Shown one piece after another: positions 1,285-51,000 of a DNA stretch of 64,000 nt. Origin of the DNA: Phoronis australis (Eukaryota; Animalia; Phoronida); NCBI GenBank assembly GCA_002633005.1, contig NMRA01000194.1, positions 499,074-563,073 of the forward strand. The letters run 5' to 3'. The translations under genes were made by a program, and so were the position numbers. The notes below the pieces were generated by a model. That model saw only the letters and a program-made list of their open reading frames with translations. It did not search any database and was not told the DNA's origin. Each line of letters begins with the position of its first letter. Position 1 is the first letter of the stretch.

Positions 1285-4186
1285 CTGAAATTGGACAAAT
1301 GATCAAATCTTAATGGGGGTAATAAACCAGAAATTTTTGTCGGAAAATGATACTACGTCTGGCAGAAACTGGCAGGTACTTACTGATTTCATGTGATCAG
1401 GTTTAAGTTGTTTATCCGCGCGTGGCGGGTTAGTTTCAGCCACCAAGGCAGCGTGGCCTTCAGCGGAATTCCGGGCCGTTTATTATTACCAGGTTTTTTT
1501 TCAAACATAGGATAAGAACATTATGACCTTGCTCTTTGGTAATCAAATACGAACATTGATGTTATTAGCCGACACCAAACTGTTTCATCGGGTTTGGCAA
1601 CTCCTTGGTTTGACTCGACTAACCACCGGTTAAATTTTGGAGCAACACTGGATTTGGTAGAAGCAGTTATTATTTTTACTATATATGAATTGTTCATTGT
1701 TATAAAGTGACAGGTCCTTTCGTGTGATAGCTCGTGACAATCGAAAGTGACCCGTCATTGAATCTAAACGCTCTTCTCAAAATATTGAGTCGGATATGAC
1801 TGCTTTGGAAAATTGTGACTCCAATTTGAACAAAGTTTGGCCGTGTTCGGAAACCTTTAGCATTTTAAAAATGTAATAAGCTTTTTCAAGCATTTTTGAC
1901 GATTATTTTGCGCGAAATTGAACAGATGTTACTGGAGGTGCATACCCCTTTGTTGGCTGGACTGCGACTGTCCCAAGCTGTGAAGTTGGCCAACTCTCCC
2001 GTCTCGTTCCATCGAAATTCACCTTCAATGTCGTCGTCGGTTAGACCGATCCAGTAGTCGTATGGTGAAAGTGCTGAAGGGGTAATTATAATGTGCCATC
2101 ACTTTACAGAAACGAGGTCTTTTCTCTCAATTGGATAATAACTCATTTCAATTTCACCTGCAGAATTAAGCTACGTCTCTTGCTACAAACCAAAAATGTT
2201 CAATATTTTCATGTACTTTCTGAAAGAGTGGTTAGTAAAACAAGGTTTACCCAGCAAAATTTGTTCGGTACATAAAATCATTCTTTTGCTAAATTACCTA
2301 CTGTAAGTGTTTCCCTAAATTCGGAGATAAAACACATCAGAGAGTTAGATACGTCTTTCATAAAATGTTAAATTTTGATAAAAAGAGTCCAAAAATGGCT
2401 CACTTACTTGAATTCTGCATTATCTGTTTGGCGAGGAAATCTTGCTCCAGCTGCGACCCGATCCTCACCATATCAGCACCGAGCGCCTGGCAGCGGGCTC
2501 TCGCTTCAGCCCATTCGAAGTCTTCCGCCACGAACTTGTAGCATGACCTCTCCTGCTCGTTCCACGTCCAGCCTTTTTGACAGAGGCCGTTCTTAGTTTC
2601 CTTGGTTACTGCTGGTGAATAAAAAGTGAATAACCAATGGGCTCTGAACTGAGAGTTATTCCGAGGAGTACGCCCATTCAGTGTTGTGAATTTGAGAAGG
2701 CCGGGGTTTCAACGTACAACTCATTTGTCAGTAGAACTGGAAGAAGTTTATCCATCGAAATGGAACAGCTGCCTATCCTGCTTTGGTTAACTTAACTACA
2801 CTTGCCTGATTCATTTCAAAGTAGGAACACAAATCGTCAGTACATCACGTCAAGCTGAGAATCACCATTGAAAATTAAGCCAGATTATAATACTCAGACT
2901 TAACAGGCAAACTGAAAAGTTAAGAGTGGGCCAAACTGACTGGGGTCAATAGAAGCCTTGTGCCCGTTCACGCGCCAGCCGATCGATGGGTTTCGCAGTT
3001 GCCCCAGGCATTGCTTGCATGGACTAAAGCCCTGTCCGGTCTTGGCACACTACAAATTTTCTTAATTGTTGAAATACTCCTATTGTCGCGTTCTGCTTCG
3101 TATCCGAAAAATTGTGTCCGGGGCACCAGTTGCTTTTGTATTCCGATTAGGTACAAGAAAAATCCGAAGTGTGTACCAAAGGATTTTCCCGACACTGATA
3201 ACTTTTTTTCGTTATTTCATTATAGAACCACACCGTTTTTGCATCACTGACAAGCTCTCGAAGTATAGTGCGAAGTAGGTAGAAAACAAAATTCCGTGTC
3301 AAATATCCTTGTCAAGTTATTAGCCTTGACTACAGGAACTGAATAAAAGAGAGGGCGACAAATCCCGTTTCTGGAATATTATTTTCCCACGATCAAATAC
3401 AACATCTCAGTATAGCAGAGCCTAGTTAAGTCCTCGTCCCATTAGGGCTGCCGCGGCGGAGGTAGGTTGTAAGGCGATATGACATCATACCTTTGGACAC
3501 TTTGTCTTCTAAATCTTTAATCCGCAAGGTGTTGGTCGAAATGACTGTCCTTAGTGCAGCTACTTCGTCCACTAAGACTTTAACTTCATGTTTACAAGAA
3601 CATGATGACGGCTCCACCTTCAGTAACGACAGTAAAAATAAAGTCTAATATCAATTGCGCACGTCACGGCGGATTAATTAGTGGGTAAGCAGTACATACT
3701 ATTTCTTTGCAGTTAAGAATTGCTAGACAAGTTAATCCAAGGAAAAAGGTGAAATTTCCTCTGCAAAATTTAAGAGGACATCTGAATGTAATGTACTAAG
3801 TTTGCAGTCCCGGGTTTGCGGCTAGTGACAATTACAAATAGCCCTCACTGAAAAACTGAACCAGAATGATGTATTTCGAGACCATAATCTAGGCGGAGTG
3901 TGTGAATTAGGAACGACAAGTCCAGGGGCGGATACAGGATTTTGAGTTGGGGGGGCAGGGCAGAGTATTAGCCAGAATTTTGCCCGTCAGACATTCGCAC
4001 CCGGCCCCCGTACTGCCAAATGGAATCTGGGAGAATTTTAGGGGGGGGCATGGGGCCCCCTCTAAATCCGCCTCTGAAGTCGCTAGGTTTTTGGCGGTCT
4101 TAACTCACTCCTGACCCTTCGTCTTCCGCTAAGAATCTTCCTTGGGACGAGGCCAGCAAACCAGCAAATAAAATGAGACTGAACAT
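1177..4186 (-). CDS. Secreted C-type lectin with N-terminal coiled-coil neck (214 aa, 5 coding exons)
   Basis: complement(join(1177..1284,1946..2073,2408..2611,3491..3617,4109..4186)). All introns are GT-AG with consistent phases (0,1,1,0); 645 nt. Signal peptide MFSLILFAGLLASSQG, heptad neck, CTLD motifs CQKGW..CYKF..W..A...C, YWIGL, C..WLWND..C....ICE. AATAAA on minus at 1100-1105. Confidence 0.9.
1946..2073 (-). CDS. C-type lectin exon 4 (WIGL)
   Basis: YDYWIGLTDDDIEGEFRWNETGELANFTAWDSRSPANKG; CAG acceptor, GTATGC donor. Confidence 0.92.
2408..2611 (-). CDS. C-type lectin exon 3 (CTLD N-half)
   Basis: LCQKGWTWNEQERSCYKFVAEDFEWAEARARCQALGADMVRIGSQLEQDFL; CAG acceptor, GTAAGT donor. Confidence 0.92.
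3491..3617 (-). CDS. C-type lectin exon 2 (CxC plus coiled-coil neck)
   Basis: Pyrimidine tract then AAG acceptor; VEPSSCSCKHEVKVLVDEVAALRTVISTNTLRIKDLEDKVSK; donor GTATGA, phase 1. Confidence 0.8.
3923..4076. mobile_element. ~155-bp MITE (CAGGGGCGGAT...ATCCGCCTCTG) with 5-bp TSD AAGTC
   Basis: Terminal inverted repeats; AAGTC on both flanks; homologous copies at 39132-39290 and ~25870-26033. Confidence 0.8.
4109..4186 (-). CDS. C-type lectin exon 1 (signal peptide, MFSLILFAGLLASSQGRFLAEDEGSG)
   Basis: ATG at 4186, 26 codons, donor GTGAGT, phase 0. Confidence 0.8.
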
Positions 4187-4574: not shown

Positions 4575-5526
4575 TATAAATAACTAGGCTTATGCGGTAG
4601 AAATATTTTTTTGCGTTGCAAAATTTAACTGCTAGTAACGTTTTTTTTTGTTTGAATAAAGTAAAAATAATGATAAAAAGGAAACAGAAAGAGCGAACTG
4701 GAAACCAAAGAAGAGAAAATCGAAACCGAAAGAGAAGAAACTCCCAAATTCCAAGCCCTAATTGCAGTCAGGCAGTTCCTCCTCAGTATAATTGCACTAC
4801 GGTTAATTTAGATCCTGTATTGTTCATTTCTAAAAATATGGAAAATCCTGTTCCAGGAGACGACGTCCAATGTTGCACTGTTTCACGAGTTTGTCCCCGG
4901 CGTCTGTAACTCGATCCAGGCACCCCTACAGTTTTGTAGGGTACACCACTGCGTGGTCATCAACAACATTAACTACTTTGACAAATCATGCTTAGCCTAT
5001 TGCTTCTCGGCGAAACTTTCACCTAGATACATGTCGAGGAATCGGAGAAACATTGACTCACTCGCCGACAACTGGGGTTACGGTGCGTAGACTCGCGATA
5101 GCGAAACTCACATCACGATATTCGCGAGATATCGTCACGTAGTACGACCGAAGCACGCGAAACCACAGCTTTTCTCAACTTAAGGTCTTACGTCTACGGA
5201 AAGCAACGTTTATGCGACATTCTTTGAACGATCGAGGGAGAAACCGACGTTTGTTCAATTTGTTTCAATACACTATAGCCAGAGATAAGGTGCGTAGATA
5301 GGATCTCAAATTCGAGTTGTGTACTACTTTGTAATCACTACCATATTATTTTGTCTGTTTCCTTTGCTGGACGTCGTGGTATCAGTGAACATTGAACAAT
5401 TTGTACAACCTGAATTAAATATTATTAGTTTACACTGTATGGCTGGGCCAAGTCATCTATGAGTGACTAGAACAAACATTCTACTACAGTGGAGTATGAA
5501 AAGACATTACTTTACAATACAAAATA

Positions 5527-5532
5527 TTTATT
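5527..5532 (-). terminator. Probable poly(A) signal of the Nrf/CNC gene
   Basis: AATAAA on minus ~840 nt after the stop codon, in AU-rich context. Confidence 0.5.
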
Positions 5533-5929
5533 TAAATAAATCTTCAGAACAGACATCTTGTAACAAGCAAAATTTCCTTTCCCGGCTATATGGAACAAAA
5601 AGCCAAGGGCAGAAGTGCCATGGGAACCACATATGATACAACATATTACACAAAGAGGTCAGTCACTACTATTCCAGTCTTACACCGTGAGGTGTCACTA
5701 GTTAACAGACTGCCGAGACAACCGTGCCAGTATATGAAACAAAATCAAAGGAAATTAAACACCACTAAGACAACATTATTATCAGCACTGTGGATAATTT
5801 CCATAAGTTATTTCATTCCTAATGACTACTAATTGAAGGAATGGATTTGGGCAACTATCTACACAACAGACATCCATGAGAAGTGAAATGACATGAGGAT
5901 GGATAGGACAACTCCAAATGACAACTACG

Positions 5930-5951
5930 CACACACACACACACACACACA
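5930..5951. repeat. (CA)n microsatellite in the Nrf 3' UTR
   Basis: About 11 CA units. Confidence 0.95.
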
Positions 5952-6369
5952 AGTTGTCTTCCTTCACAAAGCAGTCTAACATTGGAGAAAGCACGTCCAC
6001 TCGAATGTAAAATGATGACTGTAAAAGGAAACAATAATGAACACTGTAAAAACAGCGATATGACAACATTGGCTGAGATTTCAATGATACCTGACCATGG
6101 AAACAATGCGAAAATGACAACAAGAAAGGACAAATCAAATTTCACAGTTTTTAAAACTGTTCATACAATGAAACATCAACATAACACTATCTTTTTCTTA
6201 AAATATGGCCATGAAAGCGATGAGTACGACAAACAGATGGGGTGAAAATGCATATGCAACTCTCAGTCTCACTCAAGCAGTCCAGCCCGACAGCATACAG
6301 CTCATGCATATACACACACACATGGGAGACGCACAATTCTACGAACACGCACATAGAGGCCGACCACGT

Positions 6370-7054
6370 CTAGTTCTTCTTAGGGTTCTTCCTCTTCTTC
6401 ACCGACCTCTGTCTGCCCTGTTCTTCCCTGGTGCTGTTGGCAGGCACAAGCAGCAAACTCCCATCACTAGACTGCTGTAGGGAGTATTCGCCTGGCCTAT
6501 ACGGTGCACCATTGGCATCCCGCAAAGAGCGGAACATCTCCTGGTACAGCTGATCATATTTATCCCGCAAGTTCTTCAGTTCCTTCTTCATCGCTTCACG
6601 CGCCTTCATCTCCTTTGATCTTTCACTCTTCAACTCATCCAGCTCGTCCTCAAGCGACGACACCACTGTCATCTTGCGCTTACGGCAGTTCTGTGCAGCC
6701 ACCTTGTTCTTGCCCCGTCGCCGGATGTCGCGCATCAGCGACACCTGTTCGTCCGAGAACCTGTGCTTCTGCAGCATTTCATTAAACGCGTCCACAGACG
6801 AATGTACGATTTCATCCATGGTAAGCGGCACCTTCATCGTCTTGAGACGCTTTTCATCCCGACTCGTTGACTGTTTGTCTGGTTCTGGTTTCTTATCTGA
6901 CTTGCGCTCTCTCGGCTGCTGTCCAGGTTGTAGCGGATATGAATGGTTATGTGTCACGTGACGAATCTGCGCGGGAGTGAAGCTGGCGCTCTGATTGGTC
7001 GTCTCGTTGATCTCCATGTCGGAAGAGTCCAGATAGAAGCCACCCATAGAATCG
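6370..7054 (-). CDS. NFE2L1: Nrf exon 8 (CNC-bZIP, Neh3-like region, stop)
   Basis: TTTTCAG acceptor; SRDEKR...[20 protein letters not shown], leucine zipper, [15 protein letters not shown]. Confidence 0.97.
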
Positions 7055-10000
7055 CTGAAAATGGAACAAAACACGAGTTGCACAAGTTGATATTCCACAG
7101 TGAAAAGACAATAACCAACTCTAGAACTAGCTCATCAAATACAGATGAGACAGGGCTGAAGAGCGATGCAGGCAACAGACACGATACTGCTAGGTAATAT
7201 TTTCAAATGCCAATTTAAACCAACACCTGTCTAGTAAAATTGAATTATTCAGTGCTAACACCACGTATCCTCTTTGTCTTGCTTTAAATCCTCACCTGAA
7301 GCCATTCGTCTTTTGACTAGATCCGCCCTGACTGGATGACTCGTACCCACCGCCCGTGGCGCCCTCTAAGCCATCAAAGGGACTCGTCATGCCAGAACTT
7401 CCGTTGGTGGAGAGGGTGTCATTCCAGTCCTGTGGCGACAGACTTCCCATGGACGAGACTGCCGAGTCATCGCTGATCTCCTGAAGGTGGAGCTGCTGTA
7501 CTCCTGTGGAGTGAAAACAATAATAGCTTTAGTCTTAAGTTTTGAGCTGAATTGACAAAAAGCTTTACTGGAGAAATGGTCCTAACCTCTGGGAGACTTT
7601 TGGCTAGATTTGACTAGGGTTGCTCATGACGCACATAGTGTGGCACTCATGAATACCGCTCATGCACCAGCAACTTCATCTCAGTGATTCACAAGCACAG
7701 CCCCACACTCACAAAACACGACGCACGTGCCCAAATAAGACAGCTTAACGAGTCAAATTTACTAGTACATGGGATGTGTTCATGAGTGCGTGAGCCGTGT
7801 TGTTCGGGTAGCCTGATCATAACACAAAGTTCCAATCACTTGCATTCAAATCATCCGAATCTATGCGAGCGAGTGCTCATAAATCAAGAAGATTCAAGTG
7901 GACGATGATGGGTGACAAAAATATTACGCATTAACATAGAATTTGCCTTTGCAATAAAACTGTGCCAACAACAGTGGCATGGATTAGATGAACAACTGGT
8001 CTTTGAACAGGACTCACCAGAATCCAGATTAAACTGAGCTATTTCATGATCCAGTGTCAGGTCATCTTCCATCACGTCGGGCAAGAAGAAAGACTGATCA
8101 TAATAGGATGCCGACTCGTTGATCATGTTGGCCACGTCTGGAAACAGCATGCCTTCATCAGCAGCGTTGTACAGCTCACTGGGACTAGTGCTGTTGATGG
8201 TTGGGGCCAGACTGGGCTGTGGCGACACTGCAATGGGAAACACTGGGATGCACCGCCTTGCAATACGATAATGCATAAAGCTTACTGCCACACTAAGTCC
8301 TAGTAGGTAAAAGAGCTCCATCATAGTTTCATGTTCTGTTGTTTACCAGCACATGAATACAACAAGTGGTCTCACTAGCAGGCAGTTAACTCCATACTGT
8401 CCATGGAGTTACGAGGCGCAATTAAGAAAGCCAACCTGCAATACTCAAGAACTGAAACAACAGCTTCCAATCTAAAAAACAATAGTGTTCAAATATGACA
8501 CTTTATGCGACTTTAAATTTGGTTACTCTAAATCACAGAAATGAGCTTGTCTCGTGCCAGGTGTAAAACAGCAGGCCATTGCCACAAATAAACTCAATAA
8601 CTTGTTCAGACAAATTGGCTTCACAAGCCTCTATAGTTCCACGTACCACTGTTGAAATAATGCTCAAAGGGGCAATCCGCAGGTGAGGTGACAGGGGCAA
8701 ACGAGGTGTTCTGTATCAGAGCCAGACTAGTGTCTTGAATTCCGGTCATGGTTTCAGTGGATGCAGGACTGTACATGTCTGTCTGTAATGGTGCTGACGT
8801 CACAGCCATGTCCACGACAGATGGTGGTGTGCCCTCACTGGAGATCACCGTGCTGTTGGTGACAGTCAAGTTTAACAGGCTGCTGATGTCATTCCATCGC
8901 TGCTCCAGACTGTTCTGCCGTCCAAACTGGGAGTCATTCTGTAATGAACACCAATAATCACCATGAAGTTTCAGATATGTCCGCAAGCTTGGCAAGCTGG
9001 CTGGATACTGTGCTTCCATTTTGAGATGCCATGTTTAAAGATTGAACGTGTATGTTTAATGCTCCAAGTATGAATTCACATTCCTACATTGTGACACACA
9101 TCTATAAAGCTGGAGACTCCTTGTTCAAAGTTTGAAAAACATGCTTAAAGTTAGAGTTACTAGGCTTAAAGCTAGAATTTGATCCAACATGTTTGCATTA
9201 CATATAATGACCCAACCTCACCTGTTGAACTTGGTGAATAAGTTCCGAGATCTCTCGGTCCAGCTGGTCATCAGGTGTCTGTAGTAAGGTTGAGATGTTG
9301 GTGTCGGCCTGAACAGGGGTCATCTGCTGCTCGTCTCCAAGAACATCCATTTGCGAGATAGCCTATCAATGGAGAAAAAAGTAGGACAAATGTGACACAC
9401 GGCGATGATACATTAATAAATTAGGACAGCAACAACAATGTATGACGACCAGTTAAAACACTGTTCATCCTTGAAAAATGGAAATTAGTTTCAATCAAGT
9501 TGGGCTCAAGCATGTCTATGGTACATAGACTTCAGGATGATGACTTGCACTTGCAGGGAAAAAAAATTCATTTATAGAATGGAAATAGTGCATTCAATCC
9601 CAAAATTCAGCATATCAACCTCGCCGACCGATCACCTCAGTGGCTGCCATTTTGCTACTCACTCACCTGTTCAGTGTCGTTGCCTAAATGAACGTCATAT
9701 TCACTAGTTATACTCCCTCCTAATGTGGGATGGGCTGGGATGACCTCGCCTGGAAAATGGCAAACCATGTCAACACAATCATGCAATGCAATTAAACGTG
9801 AACAACTTTGAGCATCAACATTTTAAACAAAAAAATTAAAAAGCTTCCAAACGTGCATTTTCAAGTCATTAACTCCCAGAGGACAAAGTCAGCCGAGTTA
9901 AGGGAAATAATAGTTTCTAATACAAGTACTTCTGAAATGAGCTGGATGACTGAAAATACATTTATCAAATTATGTGCTAGTAGTTGCAGACAGCTAAATT

Positions 10001-12027
10001 TTATGTGCATTAGCTCTCATATTCACCGAAATGTTGAAAGATAAAAAAATAAAAAGTCAATATTAGTCATTTCAACCATTTCCAATTAAAAAAACAAATC
10101 AATGCTTTTTGTTACAAACTCCATAAGCACAGTTGGCAAAACTGTGGTAATTTAATTTTTTGATGTGGCCATCTTAAATACAAACACTGACATATGAGAC
10201 TAAGGTGTAGTGGCCAGTTTACCCACCAGTTTCATTGTCGACCATGAAGTTGTCCCAATCAATTTCTTCTTCTTGGTCACTTGACTGAGACGGTGTTTCT
10301 GTCTGCTTTTGCTGTTCAAGCTCCCGCTCTTTTTCCAACTCTTGTCTCAGGTTGGCGTCGAAACCATCTCTGCCAATACCCAGGTCAATATCTTGGTGCC
10401 ACAGAATTTCTATCAAGTCCATATCCTGGAAAAAATATGAATTTATTTAATTACTAAGTCAATGCCACATGGCTGCTGGAGAGTAGGTCATGCGGACCAG
10501 AAATAGGTTTACTAATTCACCATTGGCCACCCACTCCTTGATACAATGCTATACGCTTATGAACCTTTGCTAAAGAATGGTCTCCATTTGATAGTAACAA
10601 TAAAATGTTTGTAAGTGTACACAATGTATATTAAGAGTGCAGCTATGACGCCCTTTTAAAAATCCAGAATTAAACATTTTAAGTCCAAAAGATCAACACA
10701 GCATGGCTGGAATGTGTACATTAGAATATTTGCACTCAGTTTTTAGCTTGACTACACCAACACAGACAGTACAAGCCAAACAAGAGACACCAGCAAGAGG
10801 TGGTGTTAAGGAAATAAAAAGGTCAGGGGAAAGGTCATGACCTTACATTATGAAACACATCATGTGATGCATGGATGTTACCAGCTGCTAGATATGTTTA
10901 TCTTATCACCTGGTAATACTTTATGTAACACATAGTGGGATAAGAAAGGGATCTTGCAGAACCGCAAATTCCCTGAGAAAGATCCCATGTCAAAGCGGTA
11001 TTTATATATAATGAACAACTACAGTGAATTCATACAGAGTGGATGCCACACACTGTAACAAATCAAGATAACAAATCTCATGAGATCAGACTCATAATAT
11101 TCCTTATAGTGAGTATGATAGGATATTTTCCATTACCGAAAAAGAATCAAAACCATCAGCAGCTCGAGATAATGCTTCAGAGTGTATTGAGGTTGGCCAA
11201 CCCCAAAACAGTGTAAATTCAGAAATGGCACACGTATGCATTGGCACAAATATCTCCCGATGTTCGTGGCTTTTTTAAGGAACAGTTGTAAGTGGTTTTA
11301 AGTAGACAACAACATACGTTGGGTTGAATGTTAATTAAACATTAATCAAGTTTAACTATCAACAAACTCTGCCTTCAATATCAGAATCATTGAACAAGCA
11401 ATGCTGAAAGCAATCCATCAATAAAATTGTGGCATTAAACTCAGCCCCACATTTCCTTGAGTGAGCTTTGGACTTTACCTCCTTGGTGAGTTCTGAGCCG
11501 GCCTGTCCATCACTGGACTCAACTACACCACCAACAATTTGCGTCGTTTCACTTTCATTATGCACCGTACTCTCCACATTTTCTTGAGTTACAAGACCAG
11601 ATGATTGACTACTACTATTATTATTGTTATTATTAACTTCCGTGGACACTGGTGCAACCGCTTCTGCCACTGCGGGAAGCTCATACGATTGCCCGTCAAC
11701 AAGCCAGGCGGAGATAACATTTTCATTAGTGTGCCAGCTATGCACATGATCTGGACCCAGTTGTTGAATATCTTGGAACACATCAAGCCAGTAGCTATCC
11801 ACAGATTTGGGATGAATGTGGCCAATACCATCAAACGAGTTGTACACATTCTGCGAGTGAAAGTTGGTTAACGTGTACGCATAGGTTTGTCCCAGCATGA
11901 TTTCCTGGACTTCTGGATATGTGGATATTCCGGAGTTTAGCAAATTATTAAGATCTGTTCTCAGAAGGCTCAGTACAATCGCCAACTGAATTAGGCTGTC
12001 GCTGAAACACTTCTTCATTGGAATCAT
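6370..12027 (-). CDS. NFE2L1: Cap'n'collar bZIP transcription factor (Nrf1/Nrf2/CncC family), ER-anchored Nrf1-type isoform, 788 aa
   Basis: complement(join(6370..7054,7296..7503,8018..8227,8647..8938,9222..9362,9667..9749,10227..10425,11479..12027)); 2367 nt, all GT-AG and phase-consistent. NHB1-like [19 protein letters not shown]2-like SAWLV, LTKE|[21 protein letters not shown]|[31 protein letters not shown], Neh3-like DGSLLLVP. The invertebrate gene is probably co-orthologous to NFE2L1/2/3. Confidence 0.95.
7296..7503 (-). CDS. NFE2L1: Nrf exon 7 (DSAVS degron-like motif, LEGATG)
   Basis: CACAG|[24 protein letters not shown]...[12 protein letters not shown]...NGF|GTGAGG. Confidence 0.9.
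8018..8227 (-). CDS. NFE2L1: Nrf exon 6
   Basis: CAG|[15 protein letters not shown]...FNLDS|GTGAGT; 210 nt, phase 1-1. Confidence 0.85.
8647..8938 (-). CDS. NFE2L1: Nrf exon 5 (SLEQRW motif and NST-like region)
   Basis: CAG|[30 protein letters not shown]...YFNS|GTACGT. Confidence 0.88.
9222..9362 (-). CDS. NFE2L1: Nrf exon 4
   Basis: TAG|AISQMDVLG...[14 protein letters not shown]|GTGAGG; 141 nt, phase 0-0. Confidence 0.82.
9667..9749 (-). CDS. NFE2L1: Nrf exon 3 (completes ETGE)
   Basis: TTTTCCAG|GC GAG GTC ATC gives (G)EVIPAHP...NDTEQ; donor GTGAGT. Confidence 0.88.
10227..10425 (-). CDS. NFE2L1: Nrf exon 2: Neh2-like DLG motif to ETG
   Basis: TTTTTCCAG|GATATG; [16 protein letters not shown]...MVDNET; donor GTGGGT, phase 1. 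Confidence 0.95.
11479..12027 (-). CDS. NFE2L1: Nrf exon 1b: Nrf1-type N-terminal ER-targeting domain (183 aa)
   Basis: GCCATG start; [22 protein letters not shown] resembles Nrf1 MLSLKKYLTEGLLQFTILLSLI; ends LTKE then GTAAAG, phase 0. Confidence 0.93.
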
Positions 12028-12526
12028 GGCTCTAGTAAACTTTCCGTTGTTGTCTTCCGTTTCGATTGATCAGTCCGTCTGGCACAAAGCCCTTTGTTTA
12101 CAGCTAAATCAGACCAGCAACCAATTATCTCGCACGATCACGACACGGGCACGATATTTTACGTCACTGTCTTTAGAATACACAAAATCTACTTTAGTTT
12201 GGTAAGTCAACACAAAATAGCAGTATCCAAAATCAGGTGAGACCAACGTGGCACATCCTCATGAAATCATTACTATAGTAGAACTGATTACTCATTCGCG
12301 CCAGGGTTCGGACATCCAGGAATATCCCAACCTAGGACCGAGCCCAAACAAAAGAACTTTCCAGAATGAAAATGAAAAGAAGAGGAAAAAACATCCCCTG
12401 CATCGTTTACCACCACTATTCGTCCCTGGAAACCGGAAAAGGGTTCGTCCAATTATGATTTCTGTCAGATATGAACAAGCGCTACACACGAAGAAATGTA
12501 ATATAGCGCGTTTGTCTTCTCTCGTT

Positions 12527-12577
12527 TTGCATCAGCCATGAAATGATTCAGCAAATTTCTCCAAGGCGATGACGTCA
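12527..12577. promoter_or_regulatory. bZIP site cluster: CARE/ATF4 (TTGCATCA), ARE-like (ATGATTCAGCAAA), CRE (TGACGTCA)
   Basis: Motifs at 12527-12534, 12543-12555 and 12570-12577, ~500 bp upstream of the Nrf1-type ATG. Confidence 0.55.
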
Positions 12578-13110
12578 CAACACTGATAAGCACATGCGCC
12601 GTGAAAACCACAAGGTCACAAAATATGGGTCAAAGTGATTGCGTAATAAACAAACCAACAACAGATAGAAATTGAGATAAACTGAGTCTAACACAACACA
12701 ATTTTAATGCAGTCTTTGATGTTAGCTCGTCTACTTGAGCTCCTTTGGAGCTCATAAACCAACATTGACCATGAACCATTGAATCAGCGTCTTGTGACTG
12801 ATGTATTGAAGTTGATTGGGCTTCATCACCGCCCACCGTGCTAAAGCGCGCAGCAAAGACCATCAAAACGACTCTTGCAAATATTACAAACTGAGCACAG
12901 CGAACAGTAAAACAGATTCATTACACACCAACGAAAAAGACTATTTGATCCGCCGTCATTTGTTCAAGGTCTTGCGGCCGGGCACGATCAACCCACTATG
13001 AGCGCCAGCCAAAGAGCAGACTTCATTTAGTTGTCAGATCTACGCCCCTCGATATCATTCTGTTTTGAAGAATATATTAACCGATAAAAATACACGAGAT
13101 GTATACTTAC

Positions 13111-13164
13111 AAGACTTGCCGTTTCTCCCGAAACATCAAAAACAGGGGGATATTCTATTTCCAT
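13111..13164 (-). CDS. Candidate alternative first coding exon 1a (Nrf2-like N-terminus MEIEYPPVFDVSGETASL)
   Basis: GAAATGG Kozak context, 18 codons ending exactly at a GTAAGT donor in phase 0, in frame with exon 2; no upstream ATG after the Inr; the isoform would be 623 aa. Confidence 0.7.
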
Positions 13165-13242
13165 TTCTAACCTCGTCCCTTGCTTCGCCTGGATTGCTGG
13201 CTTGTTTGATCAGTAGTCTATCAATTGCGCACGCGTGTTACA

Positions 13243-13273
13243 GAATGACGTCACGACGGACTTCTATTTATAG
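13243..13273 (-). promoter_or_regulatory. Core promoter for exon 1a: TATA (TATAAATAG) and Inr (TCATTC) overlapping a CRE
   Basis: Minus-strand TATAAATAG at 13272-13264 (also a MEF2-type CTATTTATAG); TCATTC at 13248-13243; TGACGTCA at 13246-13253. Confidence 0.55.
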
Positions 13274-14544
13274 TATCTAGCAAATAAACTTTATTGTTAT
13301 GAAGTTTTGAACTTACAGTTGGGTCAAGCGAAACGTTCCGAGAAACGCTCTCATCAGTCTGTCTTGATCACTATAGATTGACCGATTGATCAACACGACT
13401 CGCACACTATGTCAGAAGTATTTTTAAACTGAAGTTAAAACTTTCTGTACACGTAGTAGACCTTACCTGACAACGAATCGGAAGCTCAATTAACAGGCTG
13501 GCGCGCCCCGGCCCGGGCAGCGCGGATCCAAGGTTTTGATCAGGAGAGTCCTACAATTGGGACAAACTCAGAGGTTCTTGAGGTTAATCCCTTGCAGCAA
13601 TTAATGTAAAGGTAAATGAACAGGGAGGTCGGGGGTGTACTGACACGGCCCCCATAGACCTAGTCTCCGGTCCTGAAACTCATAGTGAAGCCGTCATAAG
13701 AAAAAGTTGGACGTGGACTGGAAGAGTCAAGCGCTCGGTGACCTCAGGGCAGTCACTGACACCACCAAATTCCGCACACTTGTGGCATCCAGGTGACTGT
13801 CGGTAATTACGGATCAACTTATAGTTGGTAGCTTCATTTGCTTGATTAAGTTGGCCGTTGCAGGCGTGCCTGTGACGCAAACGTACCGTGAGTGGGGACC
13901 CGCGACTCGAGAGAGTGGCCATGCAGGTACCATCCTGGTAGCGGGCAGCAGGATGCCTGTAGGTGCTTGCAGCCTCGGTGTCTGGCGCTGAATGTCCCGC
14001 TGTCACTTAGCTTCCTAACTGGCAGTCATAGGCTGGGACCCGCGGCAGTAAATTAAGCAGTGTGCAGGCCCACCCGGTCGTGTGGATACGTAGGCCTAGA
14101 CGCCCTGGCCACGGGAAAACGCTGTCATGTCACCATGCAATTAGTACACGGCAACCCGTGACTGCCTTGTGCGTCAGTTCCGCGGAGGGCCGTACGTGGG
14201 AACGAGCGGGGAGATAACCCCTACAAGAAACAGCTCAGTGCTGTCTATTGAGTTGTAGTGACTCGTCCAGGAGCAGGATACATCCAGAGTCAGCCGGAGT
14301 CTCTAACTGAGGCGGTTTATCGTTGCCCCACGACGTCATTCCGGCAGTGCGACGGCTGATGCCAATATTACCGGTTTTGCCGATCGTTTCCGCATCCTAT
14401 TCAGTGACGTGGTGGGTGAGCCGGGAGTGTTGCTGCTACATGGCCTGCAGCTGCACTTCCATCACTTTCTTGCCCAGGCTGCAGATGAACATCGCAGACA
14501 GACACGTACCTGGAAGCCCACTGCGTTCACTTCACACCCATTAA

Positions 14545-16185
14545 AGGAGAATGCCACCCAAAAAACAACCTATTTTGTATCAATTTGGGTCGAGTAGTTC
14601 TACTCGATAACGGCAGGTTCGGTTGCGTTACCTAACACCTGACGGCAGACGGAGGTTTTGAAATTATCCAATGACGTAATTGGTTTCACACGCAGTCTGT
14701 TCAGCAGTTCACAACACGGGTTAGTGAATTCAGCTTATTGCTTGAATTCATCGTTTAACACCAATAAATCATCAAACTTCGATGTAAAACCCTTAAAAAT
14801 ATACCGAGTTCTTATAAAAACCTGTAGTTTTATTTTGCTGTTACGGATTTACTGGTATTTGGACACACCGTAGCCTACAAACTTTCGGTAGGCCAATTTA
14901 CCAAGGTCCGTAGCAGGAGTTTGGGGTCTGTTCGGAGATAAATTCGAAGTCTTCTTCCGTGAAAATACAGACAGGAGAACCTAGATCTGTGTGATTTTTT
15001 GAGTTCTAAACACACAAAACGCGTGTTATCCCGGCCAGTGGCTCGGAACCCGATCAGGCCCGTCGCGGCCGCCGGGACTGGCACGAACATAAACCAGCTT
15101 GAGTTGGAAACTAAGCCTCCAGTCACGAAAAGACTATAATAGTGAGCCAAAGAAATAATGAGCACGTAATTATTTATGTGAATTAGCCCGTGACGAAATG
15201 ACTTACTTGTCGGGGGCCGCGAAGTCGGGTTCCGTTTCCACAGACCGTCAGGGCAAAGGTTGTACAGTAACAATGATTTGAATAATGTATTTATATTTCT
15301 TAATAAAAATTCCCATAAAATATGTGACAATAGCATATAAAATCGAGTAATTGTTTCACAACAGCTTTCTGTCAGCAAACACTGAATTAGCATGCGCTCA
15401 CACGGCCTCGGTGCCCGGTCAATTACCTTTGTTGCCGACATCAAAAGCCGGTAACGCAGTGGTTTATTCATTGCTGGCTTCTCAAAACATATGCACTCAC
15501 GAGCACTCCAAGGCATTACAAATTGTATCTAACGAGACTGACTTTGTTTCACTTTCATATAAGCTGCATTGGTTAGGATCATTTTAGGATGAGAATAATT
15601 CATTTTGAAACAGAACGCAGAATAATATACGTCTACATTGCAACTCGCCCGGCGCCAATCCCGACTTAGTCAAGAGCTCATCTGACGAAGACTTCACAGA
15701 TGGATCGTTAGGTTTCACAGGCTATCAATTCGAACCGCAATACACTGATCAAGCAATACTGGAGAGGCGCCGTGAACATGCACAGGCAACGGAACGTATG
15801 GATAGTTCTTTGGTAAACGGCAGAGAAATCATTGTCGACGAAATGCCGGCCACAGACACAGAGATGTTTCACGGCGTCCTCATACTTGCTATTAACAGCA
15901 TACCTTTCATTCTTCACTACCGCGAGCCACTTCCTAAGCATTTCGGGCTCTCGAAGAAGTCAAAGAAACGGTATACCCACTTCTGCGCAGCGTCATAGTT
16001 CGGACAAGCGGGAACCGATGCACCGCAATACAGCGGCATTCACTCTGCAGACGAACCACTGACGTCGCTGTGTCGCTTCTCACCTTCCTCACAGGTTTAC
16101 GCGACACCTCTCGGCAAGGTGAGGTCGACCGTATAAGAGGCGATGTGGATATAGACCGATTAAGACCGTCGGGTGGCATTCTCCT
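14545..16185. mobile_element. Non-autonomous Kolobok-like DNA transposon, copy A, with THAP-domain relic
   Basis: TIR AGGAGAATGCCACCC/GGGTGGCATTCTCCT, TTAA TSD on both sides; frameshifted minus-strand MP..C...C.N...W...VCGRHF at ~16039-15820. Confidence 0.85.
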
Positions 16186-26069: not shown

Positions 26070-27927
26070 CGGGACGTTTTCAATTCATAAAAAGCATTCA
26101 AACAATGAAACTGAAAAAATGCCAAGTGAAAAGAGTGAAGCCATTGTTAATTCAGGTTTATTTTCCTAGTAAAGAAACGTTAATTACATGATTTTACTAC
26201 AGTTTGTTGGTAATATCACAATATATAAACAGCTACCTCACCAGAGAGTTCCCCCCGACCGCAAACTCGACCCAGTCTCAAAATAACTTTTACTCTGGCG
26301 ACACCTAGCGACCTGAGAACGTAATACCGGATGTTAGCATGCGCAGAGCAAACTTCCTGGTTAAAAATTGCCAGCTGACAGCCAATGAAAACCATCGTTC
26401 TAGTGCGCTGTACCTGGGCCTTCACAAGCAATCCGTGACGTCACTTGTGAGGCCCGGGAACCAGGTTACGGTGTGTCCAAATACCAATAAATCCGTAAGA
26501 GCGAAATAAAACATCACGTTTTTATAAGAACTCGGCGTATTCTTAAGGGTTTTACATCGAAGTTTGATGATTTATTGGTGTTAAACGATGACTTAAAGCA
26601 ATAAGCTGACACCAGTAACCCGTGTTGTGGACTGCTGAACAGACTGCGTGTGAAACCGATGACGTCATTGGATAATTTCAACACCTCCGTCTGCCGTCAG
26701 GTGTCAAGTAACGCAACCGAACGTGTCGTTATATAGTAGAACTACTCGATCTAAATTGATACAAATTAGGTTGTTTTTGGGGTGGCATGCTCCTTTAAGT
26801 GGGCGCGTAGCACGTGATCACGATTCCTGCGTCTACAGACTCAAATTCGGTGGCGCCAATTTTGATTCACGAGAGGTCACTTACGATTCACTGCGATGTC
26901 AACAGCAGGATGCTTACCTCGCTGGTTCCCTGCTTGTCCGCTAGGGGGAAGGGGGACACGCAGGGACCCAGCGAGGATGCTTACGAACCGACAACCGTCC
27001 CACAATGCATTAGAAAACGACGCCAGCGACAATAATTGTGTAATTTATGCTGTAGATCAGTGCTTCTAGATCCTGGCTGCTAATAGTGCCTGTATTAATT
27101 TGCATACGACATGGTGTCCAGGGGCAGGAATAAACTGGCATTTACAAAAAAGTATTGTTTTTAGTGGAATTTTAAATGGCGTTATTAAACTGCCAAATTT
27201 CAGGACTAAGACTGTACGTCAGGGACGGCACATGAAGAACTGGTGATGATATTTTTAAAATCCAGGGCACTGGGTCTAGTCTTTGTATTTGAGATCGGAA
27301 TTGAAAATGTTTTTGTAATTTTTGTAACCCCCTCTGTGTCGCTAGAAAACACCATTGTTGTTGTCAGCACCCACCGCTACGGGCGCCACCTGTCCCCCCG
27401 TCCCAGGTACGCCGATCACTGCCAGTTTTAGCCGTGAAGTCATCGCAAGGAAAAAATGAAGACATAAGGTTCTTTACTATATTTTTAATCTCTTTTGTTG
27501 GCCACCGCCTTGGTTCTCCTGGGTTATTTGGAAATTAATGGAATATTATTCATTTTTTCGCTCGCTTCATATCCGAACAACCAGCCACACAACAACACAA
27601 CATCATGAGATCTTGATATACGCCACAAGTGTGGAAGCGTTCCCATTACGTGAGATGACGCAATCTTAAAACGAATGGACATCAATAATGATCGATCCCA
27701 CGAAATTTATACAGAAACAACGTACTAATATGGCATGTCGTTGTTAAATATTGAGCGGAAAGTCAATTCTCCGGGTGCCACAATTAGTCTTTTTTCTCAC
27801 AACCTCTGGACAGCACTTTTCGAACTCAGTAGTGTCGTTTACATGTAAAAGTAGTAGTAGTGGAAGTAAACACGTTATTTTTTTCGCTAAAATGTATTTT
27901 GATTGGAACAAATTTTTAACCACCGGA

Positions 27928-28258
27928 ATGAGGTCTGCGACGTTTATACCAATTTGGATAGTTTTTCTGTCAACGACACAAGAAGCGTTTGCGCTTTCTT
28001 CGCTGTATCGCGTGATTACCGGCTATAAACTTACAACAAGTGATTTTATGCCCACAATTCAAAATACTAATCCTCGTACGTGCTCTCAGGCGTGTCTTTC
28101 GTCGGACGTTGCAGGGACCCCTTGCGTTTTAGCTAATTACAATGTGGATACAAACGTATGCGAACTGTATTTGGGCAACGCGTCTCCACTGCACTCGACC
28201 AATAACGCGTTCGAAGCCAATATTGCGTGGAACATTTTACATAAAGAAGGTCTCATAG
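27928..28258 (+). CDS. Copy 1 exon 1: signal peptide and PAN/Apple domain
   Basis: MRSATFIPIWIVFLSTTQEAFA...CSQACLS...CVLANYNVDTNVCELY; donor GTAAGT; conserved in the paralog. Confidence 0.9.
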
Positions 28259-31200
28259 GTAAGTAGGACAACTTCAATTAAAATCAGGACATTCGCTCAA
28301 AGCTCAAAGATGTTGTATCACGCAAAAAAAACACCTATCAGTTAGCGCTGTACGTCTTGAGAAATTCTTTTTTGTGGACAATTAAATGGTAATTAAATGT
28401 CAATGAGAATGCAATCACATATAATCCACAAAATTGGTAATTCATAACGAATTTCAAACAAATACTGGAGGTTATATTTCGTGCTTCGCATTTTCTTTAT
28501 AGTCACGGTTATATGAGTTCCAGTCGTAACCACAGAAAAAAGTGCAAAGTTGCTTTCTTTCCCGACTTTCAACATTTCAAGATGTCTCTTATTTCGCTCA
28601 TTATTCTATTAATGCGCAATGATTTCAGTCACGCTCATTCGATAAAATATTCGTCATTTTCCGCACGATGACATAATATATAATTATACAGTAATGTACA
28701 TGATAACAACACTCGAAAATGAACGAACTTCGTATCGAATGAGCATGATTTCAGTTGCGCGCTTTTCCCGGCTTTTTGCCAACCTTTATGAAATACGTAG
28801 CAATGCTGTACCAAATACAATATTCTGTCCGACTGGCACTGGGAGCAGTGGACATGGTGATCACAAACAGAGTTTATTATCTCGATTATGACTCACGAAA
28901 TCGTCCAGTTACGATGGTAAAGACATGCGTTTATGTTCAGTTGATTTAAATACGCCGGTTGACTTGATTCTTGATTGACCACTGAAGATACAAATATGAG
29001 AGTTGATCACCATACTTCTAGGCTCATAGGGACTGGATGCGAGAGAGATTTGCATTGAGCCTGCAATTTGCATGTACAGTCTCACGTTTATTGCGGCGTT
29101 TCTTCTTGTAGACAAATACTGGACAGTGAACTACAACATCGACTCACCAAGCGACGCTGTCGAAAACGAGTCGTTGAACAGTATAAAGGTAAGGTGTATT
29201 GTTTCAAACATACGTACAAAGGAGACCAGGATTTGAATTCCGTTTGACTGTTTACATGTTTTAACGTGGATAAAGCAATTTCAGATTGCTATCATTTCGG
29301 AGTCGTTCCAAACATATAAATGAGATCGTTTTTCGGACAACTCCCAATCCGTTTTTTATGCAAATCTGTGTCTTTCTTCTTTTTTGCCTTTCCGAAAAGA
29401 GAACCCCGAAATACAATTACAATATGCCCCGACCGTAAGCCAAACTCCTCCAAAAGTATTAAGAAAGTCTCACCTGTCAGATGTATTAACATCATTCATA
29501 AAGTTTCAAGTATTTACAGTGATGTAATCAGCAACTGAAACAGCAATTTTAGAAATTATTTACATGTGAAATATTTGGAGAATTATTGTAATGAACTCAT
29601 AGTCCGTTTTATAGAATAGTATGCTTTATAACAATCATTTAAGACAAATGCATCGCTCATTTTCCAAATTTCAGATCTTTTGAAACATTGCGGTGCGACT
29701 GTCTGTTACTCACTTCAGATTTGTCTAAGAACTACTGAAACGTTTTAGGGAGAAGATTTACACGAGTTAGAAATTATGCACGCTTGTCCAAGAAATTAAA
29801 AAAGTTGTTTTTTATTGCAGACAGCGGGAAACAATGTTTGTCACGGGCTCGAACCATTGTGGACACGCTGTAAAACAGGATCTACGACCTTTGACCACTC
29901 CACTCTAGTATCTGCCGGTATAACCCAAACCCTGGAGCCAGGCAAAGATTGCACACCATCTGGCGGTCTGGAGTGTCGTGGCGCAAGTCAAAACGGAGGC
30001 TCTTGCAGCGATTACACTGTGTCGTTCCAGTGTATGGGGATTAAAAGTAAGCGCTCACCGTGTCTGTATATTTAGTATACAGCTTTGCACCAAGGCTAAC
30101 CACTCACGTGTAATCGACATGATAATACCCGCAAATCAAGCTACAAGAAAGCAAGCTTCCCCAGGGTAAGAAAACTGAGCTGCCTCCTGACCTGCAGTGG
30201 GACGTTTACAGGGCAAATAAGACGCCTGACGAGCATTCACATCTGCCGAACTGCCTTCTCATATGACGGCACGCGAACGCAGTAATAATGATCTCCTTTT
30301 GATTCGATGTCATATGACAATTTGTAAATATTTTAAGGTGCTTTCCCATTAGGGAAACTTTGTTTCACCGAAGCTTCGCCAAAACTGCGCTTACTTTTCC
30401 GACTAGCCAGCCAGCTGGAAGAATATCGTTAAAATGCTTCCAAGTTTGTTGGTATTATAATACTAGAAACTAGTAAAGGAATGAAACCAATTCCGAATTA
30501 GTTGTAACATGTACGCAACCTCGCGGAAGAAGAACAGTTGAAAGGAGAATCGGCGTTAAAAGAAACTGGCCAATACATGTAGGTGACACTCCACAACTTT
30601 ATCAGCAGAATAACGGTAGAACGCCAACTTTTCCGACACCGGTAAAAACTTAATTTAATCAAGGAAGAGTGTAGCTTTCCAATGACACTATTTTTGTCAG
30701 ACATTATTTGGCTAGTTTTTTACCCACATCGGCGCAAAGCTGTATATTTAGAATACAGCTTTGCACCAAGGCTACTTTTCGACTAGACAGCGATATCGAA
30801 GTTATCGATATGGCAATTCAGTCATCGAAGACGGTGCAGGTCATTCTTACTCTCGAATATTGAGTAGTGGGTTTGAGGCAAACTGAAAAGTTTTCCTGCC
30901 ACTTACGAGTGTCTATGAAAATGACCAGTGCCATTCTTCATCTTATATGCCATCTTTTATTTATTTACGTGCGGCTATCGAGAGCGCGTCGGCTACTATA
31001 CAATAATAAAGAACACGTTTTGCAAATCTCGCGTTATCTTACATTTGTATATCGTTACCGAGACCTCTACCAATAACTTCGACGAAGCTTCGCTCTGATT
31101 TTTCCCACTACACCGAAGTTTCGGTGACTACCGAAGCTTCTCTTTTAATCCTACCATTTTCAGCGAAGTTTCGCTTGCAGATTAACTACCGGAGTTAATC

Positions 31201-48371: not shown

Positions 48372-51000
48372 ATTATTGGAGTTAAGCACAGAAAGAATTA
48401 AACAGCCTTTACTGGGCGCGTAGCACGTGATCACGCTTGCTGTACTCCCAGAATTCTTGTGTCTGCGGACTCAGATCCGGTGACGCCAATTTTAATTCAC
48501 GAGAAGTCATATACGAATCACTGTGATGTCACCAGCAGAAAGCTTACGAACCGACAACTGTCCCACGATGCATTTGAAAACGACGCCAGCGCCACTAATT
48601 GTGTAATTTATGCGGTAGATCATTGCATCACGATCTTGGCTGCTATAAACTGCTGAGTGTCTCATCGACTGGAACAGCTGTTGAATATGATATTAATTTG
48701 CATATGACAGGGCAGGAATAAACCATACACGTCACGTGAGCATGAGAACCGAGGATGATAACGTTTAAATTCAAGGGCCGTGGGTCAAATTTTTGTACTT
48801 GAAATCGAAATCGAAAATATTTTTGATTATTTTGGAATCCCCTCTCTGCCGCTATTTAACACGATTGTTGTTTTCGACACCCACCATCATGCGTACCACC
48901 TGTCTTCCCGTCCCAGGTAAGGCGACCACTGCTATTTTTAGCTGTGAAGTCAAATGATCACGTTTGTGCCATTGCATGAAAAAAATGAAGAGATAATTTA
49001 TATAGTTTTTTACCATAAATTTTAATGCCATTTGCCAGCCACTGTCGACGCACTACTGGGTTATATGGAAACCAATGCAATATTGTTCACATTTTCGCTC
49101 GCATCATATCCTGAACAACCAGGCGCACAACAACACACCATCACGAGAAGCTGATATACGGAAAATTGTGACAGTGCTCCGATTATTTAGTTTACGCCAC
49201 ATTAAAACGAACGGATATCATTAATTATGAGTCTCATGAAATTTAAACAGCAACCATGTATGCAAAAAACTATACGGGTTGTCGTAATCAAATATTGAGC
49301 GGAAAGCCAAGTCTCCGGGGTCATCAATCAGTCTCTCTTCTCATAACCTCTAGACAGTACCTTTTGCACATCAGTAGTGCCGTTCTCATGCGGAAGTAGC
49401 AGCAGTGCAAGCAATCGCGTTAATTTTTCGTTAAAATTTTAATCTTAAGAAATTTTTAACCAACGGAATGAGATCTGTTACTTTTATATCAATTTGCGTT
49501 GTTTTTCTGTCAACAGCTCAAGAAGCGTTTGCGCTTTCTTCGCTGTATCGCGTGATTACCGGCTATAAACTTACAACAAGTGATTTTATGCCCACAATTC
49601 AAAATACTAATCCTCGTACGTGCTCTCAGGCGTGTCTTTCGTCGGACTTTGCAGGGACCCCTTGCGTTTTAGCTAATTACAATGTGGATACAAACGTATG
49701 CGAACTGTATTTAGGCAACGCGTCTCCACTGCACTCAACCAATAACGCGTTCGAAGCCAATGTTACGTGGAACATTTTACACAAAGTAGATCTCATAGGT
49801 AAGTAGGCCAGTTTTAGTTAAAATCAGGACATTCGCTCAAATCTCAAAGATGTTGTTTCACACAAAACAACACATATCAGTTAGAGCTGTACGTCTTGAG
49901 AAATTCTTTTTTGTGGAAAACTAAAGGGTAACACGTCAGTGAAAATGCAATCGCATAAAATCCAAAAAAATTGGTAATTCATAATGAATTTCAAACAAAT
50001 TCCGGATGCTAAATTTCGTGCTTGGCAGTTTCTTTATAGTCACGGTTGTATGAGTTCCAGTCGTAACCACAGAAAACAGCAAATTTGCTTTCTTTCCCGA
50101 CTTTCAACATTTCAAATTACCTGTAAGTTTTACTGAGACAATTATTTATTCAGTTGCTACTCAATGACTTCAATCACGCTCATTCGATACAATATTAGTC
50201 ATTTTCCGTTCCATGTTGTAATAAATATATAGCATAGACGGCACAGCACTGAAATAAATGTGGGCCATTGCCCCCCAGTCCCCTATGGGCGCAGCCCATG
50301 TATAGTAATGTACATGCTAACGTCACATAAAAATGGACGAGATCATGATTTCATATTGCACGCTTTTCCTTTTTGGCTAATCTTTATGAAATGCGTATCA
50401 CAGGTGTACCAAAACTATTTTCTGCCTGAGTAGCACTGAGCGTAGAGGACACTGTGAACACAAACCGTGTTTATCATGTAAATTATGACTCAAGTAATAC
50501 GCCATTTACGCTTGTAGAGGCATGTTCTTATGTTCAGTTGATTAAATACGTCCGTTGACTTCATTCTGGACTAACCAATGAAGATCCAATATCACAGTTG
50601 TTCCCCATACTCCAGTGCTCATTGGGACTGGATGCGAGAGTTTTGCTTTGAGCCTGGAATTTGCATGCACAGTCTTACGTTTACTGCTTTGTTTCTTTTT
50701 GTAGACAAATACTGGACAGTGAACTACAACATCGACTCACCAAGCGATGGTGTCGAAAACGAGTCGTTGAACAGTATAAAGGTGAGGTGTATTATTTCAA
50801 AAATACGTACAAAGAAGACCAGGATATGGACTCCAGCGTTGTTAAAAAGTATTTCGGCTCGCTATCGGAGAGTCGTTGCAAATGTATAAATGAGATCGTA
50901 ATATTTTTTGGAAAACGCCCGCTCCATATCACGATGCAAGTCTACAAAGAATCATCTGTGCAAAAGCATGAAAATTTTGAGACATCCAGTTAAGAAAACA

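What the first reader, a model, noticed from the sequence alone, without database searches (positions are those of the whole stretch)
13111..13273. Hidden Nrf2-type first exon: one CNC gene may encode both an Nrf2-like cytosolic and an Nrf1-like ER isoform
Seen on the minus strand ~1.1 kb upstream of the Nrf1-type ATG: TATA (13272), Inr (13246), an ATG-free leader, a strong Kozak ATG (13164) and exactly 18 codons, MEIEYPPVFDVSGETASL, ending at GTAAGT in phase 0. Exon 2 starts in phase 0 with [16 protein letters not shown]. Known (from memory, to be verified): human Nrf2 exon 1 encodes the short MMDLELPPPGLPSQQ spliced to DMDLID, whereas Nrf1 has a long NHB1/NHB2 exon ending LTKE before DIDLID; exon 1b here also ends LTKE. 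Inference: alternative first exons give a 623-aa Nrf2-like and a 788-aa Nrf1-like protein, so vertebrate NFE2L2 and NFE2L1 may have partitioned two pre-existing isoforms after duplication. The exon is too short for the ORF track and is easily missed by annotation.
Basis: partly seen in the sequence, partly recalled or inferred. Interest (0 to 1): 0.88.

Follow-up and report, generated by a model that had tools for sequence, protein, structure and literature searches.

The report
One gene, Nrf1-like and Nrf2-like starts
This invertebrate's stress-response Nrf gene is transcribed with two alternative first exons, giving a short protein predicted to act like vertebrate Nrf2 and a long one predicted to sit in the ER like Nrf1; the arrangement is real but already known from other invertebrates.

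Summary
The hidden exon is real. RNA reads join 13111 to 10425 in 3 of 3 raw runs (15, 7, 22 reads), beside the long first exon 11479>10425 (27, 23, 10); a contig from a second study carries the short junction too. The frames give 623 and 788 aa. The long form adds an NHB1 anchor and the Nrf1 cleavage motif; both share DLG/ETGE and the CNC-bZIP. It is not new in kind. Fuse & Kobayashi 2017 proposed one invertebrate Nrf locus making forms with and without the ER anchor, divided among vertebrate paralogues. SKN-1A/C is the worked example, and 11 of 11 named spiralian/hemichordate pairs checked are already annotated, diverging at the same residue. Added here: read proof, a ratio that differs between samples, and modest sequence evidence that the micro-exon is homologous to vertebrate Nrf2 exon 1 (beats 1090 of 1090 background ATG peptides; motif patchy, strict form in 0 of 55 relatives). 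The start site is not mapped; localisation and Keap1/DDI2 dependence are untested. Boldest open reading: human NFE2L2's second promoter and non-coding exon 1' are the relic of the ER-form exon.

The parts
13266..13272 (-). TATA-like box of the exon 1a promoter (predicted)
   Evidence: sequence; start site not mapped
13246..13253 (.). perfect CRE-type palindrome TGACGTCA overlapping the predicted initiator of exon 1a
   Evidence: 8 copies in 64 kb; function untested
13111..13246 (-). exon 1a (short first exon); CDS 13164-13111 = 18 codons; reads cover 13111 to about 13190-13200, the rest is predicted
10426..13110 (-). intron 1a (2685 nt, GT-AG, phase 0); contains exon 1b
   Evidence: joint, 15/7/22 reads and X1 contig
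12570..12577 (.). second CRE-type palindrome at the edge where exon 1b sense coverage begins
   Evidence: function untested
11479..12570 (-). exon 1b (long first exon): about 540-nt leader with 9 upstream ATGs, all closing before 12027; CDS 12027-11479 with NHB1 and the AWLV motif (W108/L109)
   Evidence: 5' edge approximate
10227..10425 (-). exon 2, shared: Neh2-like, DLG, and the ET of ETGE
9667..9749 (-). exon 3, shared; completes ETGE (intron in the Gly codon)
9222..9362 (-). exon 4, shared
8647..8938 (-). exon 5, shared; Neh5-like EQRW motif and N-glycosylation sequons
8018..8227 (-). exon 6, shared
7296..7503 (-). exon 7, shared; DSAVSS (Neh6-like variant)
5581..7054 (-). exon 8, shared: CNC-bZIP and Neh3-like LLLVP, stop at 6370, 3' UTR to about 5581
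   Evidence: (tables 6, 8)

Best explanation
The window's CNC/Nrf gene is transcribed with two alternative first exons, both spliced in phase 0 onto the same DLG exon, giving a 623-aa form predicted to be cytosolic and Keap1-controlled like Nrf2 and a 788-aa form predicted to be ER-anchored and DDI2-released like Nrf1. Shown: both junctions, both frames, a ratio that differs between samples. Inferred from homology: exon 1b's NHB1 inserts the long form into the ER, where the enriched sequons are glycosylated; retrotranslocation, deglycosylation (Asn to Asp editing) and cleavage at AW|L release a factor for proteasome genes. The short form carries the same sequons but would never enter the ER, so it stays unedited and is turned over through DLG/ETGE. 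Promoter choice would thus set the balance of the two stress arms. The architecture is likely ancestral to bilaterians, and vertebrate NFE2L2 likely kept the short exon while NFE2L1/3 kept the long one, as published.
For: Junction reads for both exons; no cross-splicing listed. 1a:1b = 15:27, 7:23, 22:10; chi-square p = 0.0008 on reads, 0.026 on distinct starts. Exon 1b vs lizard NFE2L1: 41% over 113 columns, E 2e-19; AWLV at 107-110 matches 102-105 in the lizard protein, numbered like the Leu104 start of processed Nrf1. Best 19-residue hydropathy 1.34 in the long form, 0.79 in the short. Exon 2 vs gar Nrf2a: 66% over 44 aa; DLG-ETGE distance 51 vs 50 in 4 of 4 named vertebrate Nrf2. Sequons in the shared part: 15 vs 5.4 in shuffles (1/5000); enriched in 2 of 2 Nrf1-type and 7 of 7 other invertebrate proteins (p under 0.02), not in 5 of 6 Nrf2 nor in the lamprey protein. 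11 of 11 named species pairs share their sequence from the same D[ML]DL residue. A Pinctada gene model runs the short peptide into the NHB1 exon, the same genomic order. Published model: PMC6155405 section 4.2; SKN-1A/C.
Against: No protein-level data: translation from ATG 13164, localisation and partners are untested. NHB1 hydropathy is moderate. Only 2 lysines lie between DLG and ETGE (3-7 in the four vertebrate Nrf2); no TRAM-type Neh4 motif is seen; Neh6 reads DSAVSS, not DSGIS. The second intron splits ETGE here, whereas both degrons lie in human exon 2. The short-exon motif is absent from 5 of 5 ambulacrarian and 19 of 19 arthropod short forms. The intron position in vertebrate NFE2L1 is recalled, not checked. 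The three raw runs are one study of unknown tissues. That the gene is single-copy could not be checked (no genome held).
Confidence: 0.85

Rival explanations
1. Both transcripts exist, but short first exons arose independently in several lineages; the likeness to vertebrate Nrf2 exon 1 is convergent, since any promoter upstream of the DLG exon gives a form without the anchor.
For: Motif M[DE][ILVM][DE] in only 5 of 15 named spiralian short forms, 4 of 11 Nrf2-clade, 0 of 5 ambulacrarian, 0 of 19 arthropod. It was defined after seeing the data, and real N-termini are richer in M-D/E than my genomic null (recalled). Exon 2 has its own Met, and Lineus X3 and gar X3 start there.
Against: The window peptide outscores 1090 of 1090 background ATG peptides, and 71 of 71 with D/E second, against vertebrate Nrf2 starts, with 6 chosen or all 11 Nrf2-clade starts at 5-8 residues (at 4 residues 4 of 1090 reach it). 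Gar Nrf2a starts MEIELP, the window MEIEYP. Most spiralian short exons are 15-20 codons, vertebrate ones mostly 11-14.
Confidence: 0.25
2. Exon 1a is used, but both proteins converge on one nuclear factor: the short form equals the processed long form and there is no real division of labour.
For: 605 aa are identical. In C. elegans both isoforms promote oxidative stress resistance (abstract).
Against: In the same paper proteasome-gene activation needs sequence editing, which only the ER form gets; sequons are strongly enriched here.
Confidence: 0.12
3. Exon 1a is a cryptic or noise exon.
For: Start site not mapped; no protein evidence.
Against: 23-69% of first-exon junction reads per sample, found in two studies; equivalent short exons annotated in 11 species.
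Confidence: 0.02

Closest known systems
Invertebrate single Nrf/CNC locus with variants with and without the ER-binding domain (fly CncC/CncI, octopus, Ciona; Fuse & Kobayashi 2017, PMC6155405)
   Same: One locus, forms with and without NHB1, proposed to be assigned to separate vertebrate paralogues; the same hypothesis as the finding.
   Different: In the sections read (4.1, 4.2) that review works from database variants and domain content; it gives no junction reads and does not discuss homology of the short exon itself.
C. elegans skn-1 (SKN-1A / SKN-1C)
   Same: Alternative starts give an ER Nrf1-like and an Nrf2-like isoform; editing distinguishes them (PMC12251208).
   Different: SKN-1 lacks the leucine zipper and nematodes are reported to lack Keap1; the window protein has DLG/ETGE and a full bZIP.
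RefSeq X1/X2 isoform pairs in Lingula, Lineus, Crassostrea, Liolophura, Dreissena, Pomacea, Gigantopelta, Haliotis, Ptychodera, Saccoglossus, and an Owenia pair
   Same: Long NHB1 form and short form diverging at the D[ML]DL residue.
   Different: DLG-ETGE distance is 62 in most molluscs and 55 in Owenia, 51 here; the short peptide here is closer to vertebrate Nrf2 starts than any of the 29 others scored.
Vertebrate NFE2L2 (Nrf2) and NFE2L1 (Nrf1)
   Same: Short start + DLG/ETGE as in Nrf2; NHB1, AWL site, LTKE|D boundary and sequons as in Nrf1.
   Different: Separate genes in vertebrates; invertebrate Nrf proteins branch outside the vertebrate Nrf1/2/3 clade (the window protein was not in that tree). 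No TRAM-type Neh4 seen.

Membership tests
CNC-bZIP (Nrf/Cnc) family | CNC + basic leucine zipper | tested here: met
   bZIP_Maf E 7e-16 and bZIP_1 above cut-off; best named hits are Nrf/Cnc proteins at 40-57%
Invertebrate dual-isoform Nrf locus | Two first exons spliced to the same Neh2 exon | tested here: met
Invertebrate dual-isoform Nrf locus | Single Nrf gene in the genome | not testable with these tools
   no genome held
Nrf1-type ER factor (long form) | N-terminal NHB1 segment | tested here: met
   41% to lizard NFE2L1, E 2e-19; hydropathy peak 1.34
Nrf1-type ER factor (long form) | Cleavage-site motif around Leu104 | tested here: met
   SAWLV aligned; Leu104 from PMC7279161
Nrf1-type ER factor (long form) | Sequon-rich region | tested here: met
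   15 vs 5.4, 1/5000 shuffles
Nrf1-type ER factor (long form) | ER localisation, glycosylation, DDI2/NGLY1 dependence | not testable with these tools
   needs cells
Nrf2-type factor (short form) | DLG and ETGE with lysines between, no anchor | tested here: met
   distance 51, 2 Lys; hydropathy max 0.79
Nrf2-type factor (short form) | Keap1-dependent turnover | not tested
   no Keap1 of this organism in hand; no complex job sent
Vertebrate NFE2L2 (strict orthology) | Neh4 TRAM (FxD/ExxxL) and DSGIS | tested here: not met
   no such motif seen between ETGE and EQRW; DSAVSS instead (definitions)
Vertebrate NFE2L2 (strict orthology) | Branching inside the Nrf2 clade | tested here: inconclusive
   window protein groups with non-mollusc spiralians, away from lizard NFE2L1, in a quick tree without starred support and without Nrf2 rows; other invertebrates fall outside the vertebrate clade
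Homologue of vertebrate Nrf2 exon 1 | Same boundary and phase, similar peptide | tested here: inconclusive
   boundary and phase agree with published human coordinates (differs by one codon); peptide similarity above background but patchy

The most novel reading that the evidence does not exclude
The ancestral two-promoter layout (short exon, then about 0.5 kb downstream the long ER exon) survives in human NFE2L2: canonical exon 1 is the homologue of exon 1a, and the conserved, non-coding, poorly translated exon 1' of promoter P2, about 400 nt downstream, is the decayed NHB1 exon. Nrf2 would have lost its ER form by decay of the coding frame while keeping the promoter.
Probability: 0.3. Interest if true: 0.62.

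Novelty: new member of a known kind. Interest (0 to 1): 0.36.

Why it matters
It supplies direct read evidence, in a likely spiralian, for the published view that the Nrf1 (proteasome) and Nrf2 (oxidative stress) programmes began as promoter choices of one gene. Practically, invertebrate 'Nrf2' expression studies with primers in shared exons would pool two differently regulated proteins whose ratio shifts between samples. If the exon 1' idea holds, it gives an origin for the second human NFE2L2 promoter.

Tried and rejected
No genome is held for the window, so copy number and Keap1/DDI2 genes were not checked. The exon-2 peptide found no longer relatives in the word-indexed search (0 of 93 candidates); the Glandiceps N-terminus gave only 5 hits of 228. 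Exons 1b and 2 match no Pfam family. The careful tree did not finish; the quick tree gives no starred group for the window protein. A paper search for the NFE2L1 exon structure listed nothing relevant (12 of 39 shown), so that intron position stays recalled. Splicing of the 13110 donor into the exon 1b leader, and an upstream exon or trans-spliced leader on exon 1a: no such joint or loose end listed (threshold 3 reads). Autoregulation by an ARE: no MARE in the window and no TGA[CG]nnnGC at either start. Repeats around the promoters: three short two-copy families, likely chance. One of 12 pairs (unnamed cluster) shared no suffix and is not counted among the 11 named pairs. Three look-ups of earlier scan findings returned nothing.

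Full report
Observation. Every sequence feature named is present: TATAAAT at 13272, an initiator-like TCATTCT at 13246, an ATG-free leader, ATG 13164 with G at -3 and +4, 18 codons and a GTAAGT donor in phase 0. Exon 1b (CDS 12027-11479) ends LTKE at a GTAAAG donor, also phase 0. With seven shared exons the frames are 623 and 788 aa.

RNA evidence. Four runs were laid: three stranded raw runs of one study (about 18-19% of each read) and one contig set from another. All six shared introns are confirmed. The joint 13111>10425 has 15, 7 and 22 reads; 11479>10425 has 27, 23 and 10. Their sums (42, 30, 32) are of the order of the next junction (41, 50, 39), leaving little room for a third major first exon. 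The X1 contig, which differs from the window by substitutions and 3' UTR indels and so is another population or close relative, also runs through exon 1a. In the finer lay all listed loose ends at 13110 read exon 2, and nothing is listed entering exon 1a from upstream. The ratio differs between samples (p = 0.0008 on reads, 0.026 on distinct starts); tissues or treatments are unknown. The exon 1a start is not mapped: coverage fades near 13190-13200. Exon 1b coverage begins near 12570, giving a leader of about 540 nt with 9 upstream ATGs. Both apparent starts abut a perfect TGACGTCA, of which the window has 8; function untested.

Protein anatomy. The last exon is a CNC-bZIP; best named hits are brachiopod, mollusc, annelid and nemertean proteins, and a quick tree places the protein among non-mollusc spiralians without firm support. 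Exon 1b aligns to lizard NFE2L1 from NHB1 to SAWLV, whose Leu is residue 104 in the lizard protein, the start of processed Nrf1. The shared part has DLG and ETGE 51 residues apart with 2 lysines and 15 sequons against 5.4 expected. Sequon excess holds in 7 of 7 other invertebrate and 2 of 2 Nrf1-type proteins tested, and is absent in 5 of 6 Nrf2 proteins and in the lamprey protein, as expected if Nrf2 lost its ER route. No TRAM-type Neh4 motif is seen and Neh6 is a variant, so the short form likely works like Nrf2 but is not an NFE2L2.

Relatives. In 11 of 11 named species pairs (9 spiralians, 2 hemichordates) the short and long annotated isoforms are identical from the D[ML]DL residue on (Ptychodera one residue further by chance); a twelfth, unnamed pair did not match. 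A Pinctada model fuses the short peptide to the NHB1 exon, showing the same order. Vertebrate Nrf2 starts came, 4 of them named and 11 placed in the Nrf2 clade. Against them the window peptide scores above all 1090 background ATG peptides, with 6 hand-picked starts and with all 11 at 5, 6 and 8 residues; at 4 residues 4 of 1090 reach it. The null is genomic, not real N-termini, so it flatters the result. I put exon homology at about 0.7.

Prior knowledge. PMC6155405 (passages, and sections 4.1 and 4.2 read whole) reports variants with and without the ER domain in fly, octopus, Ciona and C. elegans and concludes that they were assigned to separate loci at vertebrate quadruplication. PMC12251208 (abstract and passages) describes SKN-1A/C and sequence editing. 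PMC12285602 (passages) makes a similar inference. PMC11989980 (abstract, passages) treats amphioxus NRF as one Nrf1/Nrf2 hybrid. PMC7279161 (passages) gives Leu104 and DDI2. PMC13626756 (passages) gives human exon 1 coordinates, from which I compute 45 coding nt, phase 0; PMC13208080 (passages) tabulates aa 1-16 instead. No supplements were opened; those of PMC13626756 may bear on exon 1' conservation.

Mechanism. Shown: two first exons with variable use. Inferred: the long form follows the Nrf1 route (ER insertion, glycosylation, editing, DDI2 cleavage) and the short form the Keap1 route; the upstream ATGs likely damp translation of the long form.

Novel edge. Human NFE2L2 has a second promoter whose 729-nt non-coding exon 1' lies about 400 nt downstream of exon 1, splices to exon 2 and is more conserved than exon 1. 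That is the position of exon 1b here (about 540 nt). A gar Nrf2a isoform starts at the exon-2 Met, which fits such a transcript but does not show it. The paper's main text never names NRF1 or NFE2L1, and searches listed no title or abstract start proposing the link; the library lacks most subscription journals. The support is position only: no vertebrate DNA could be examined, exon 1' is said to hold no AUG, and tandem promoters arise often. Probability 0.3.

Verdict. Real, confirmed by RNA, and a new member of a known kind. Interest 0.36.

Noticed in passing
window 12144-13060 and 13303-14350, + strand: Low-depth antisense reads follow promoter use: around the exon 1b start in X2/X3 (1b-dominant), upstream of exon 1a mainly in X4 (1a-dominant); possibly divergent transcription, few reads.
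   Followed up: partly
window 5287-7319, + strand: A GT-AG antisense splice joint (3 and 5 reads in X2, X3) spans the 3' end of the Nrf gene; possible antisense RNA.
   Followed up: no
window 12570-12577 and 13246-13253: Perfect TGACGTCA at both apparent starts; 8 in the window against about 1.5 expected from a third-order Markov model.
   Followed up: partly
window 12027-12570: Nine upstream ATGs in the exon 1b leader, uORFs of 3-24 codons, against none in exon 1a.
   Followed up: partly
window 14540-15000: High-depth reads on both strands at 90-95% identity with a sharp edge at 14540: a dispersed repeat or transposon end.
   Followed up: no
window 27748-28266 and 49435-49806: Two near-identical PAN-domain exons about 21.6 kb apart, a local duplication.
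   Followed up: partly
window 2400-2708, - strand: C-type lectin-like exon, below the Pfam cut-off.
   Followed up: partly
window 56863-57558 and 60656-61594: ORF pieces that look like degenerate retroelement remnants by eye; no Pfam match.
   Followed up: partly
window 9749-10227: The ETGE motif is split by intron 2, unlike human NFE2L2 where both degrons lie in exon 2.
   Followed up: partly
protein P0014 (Pinctada imbricata): The public gene model fuses the short first exon to the NHB1 exon by read-through, probably an annotation error.
   Followed up: no
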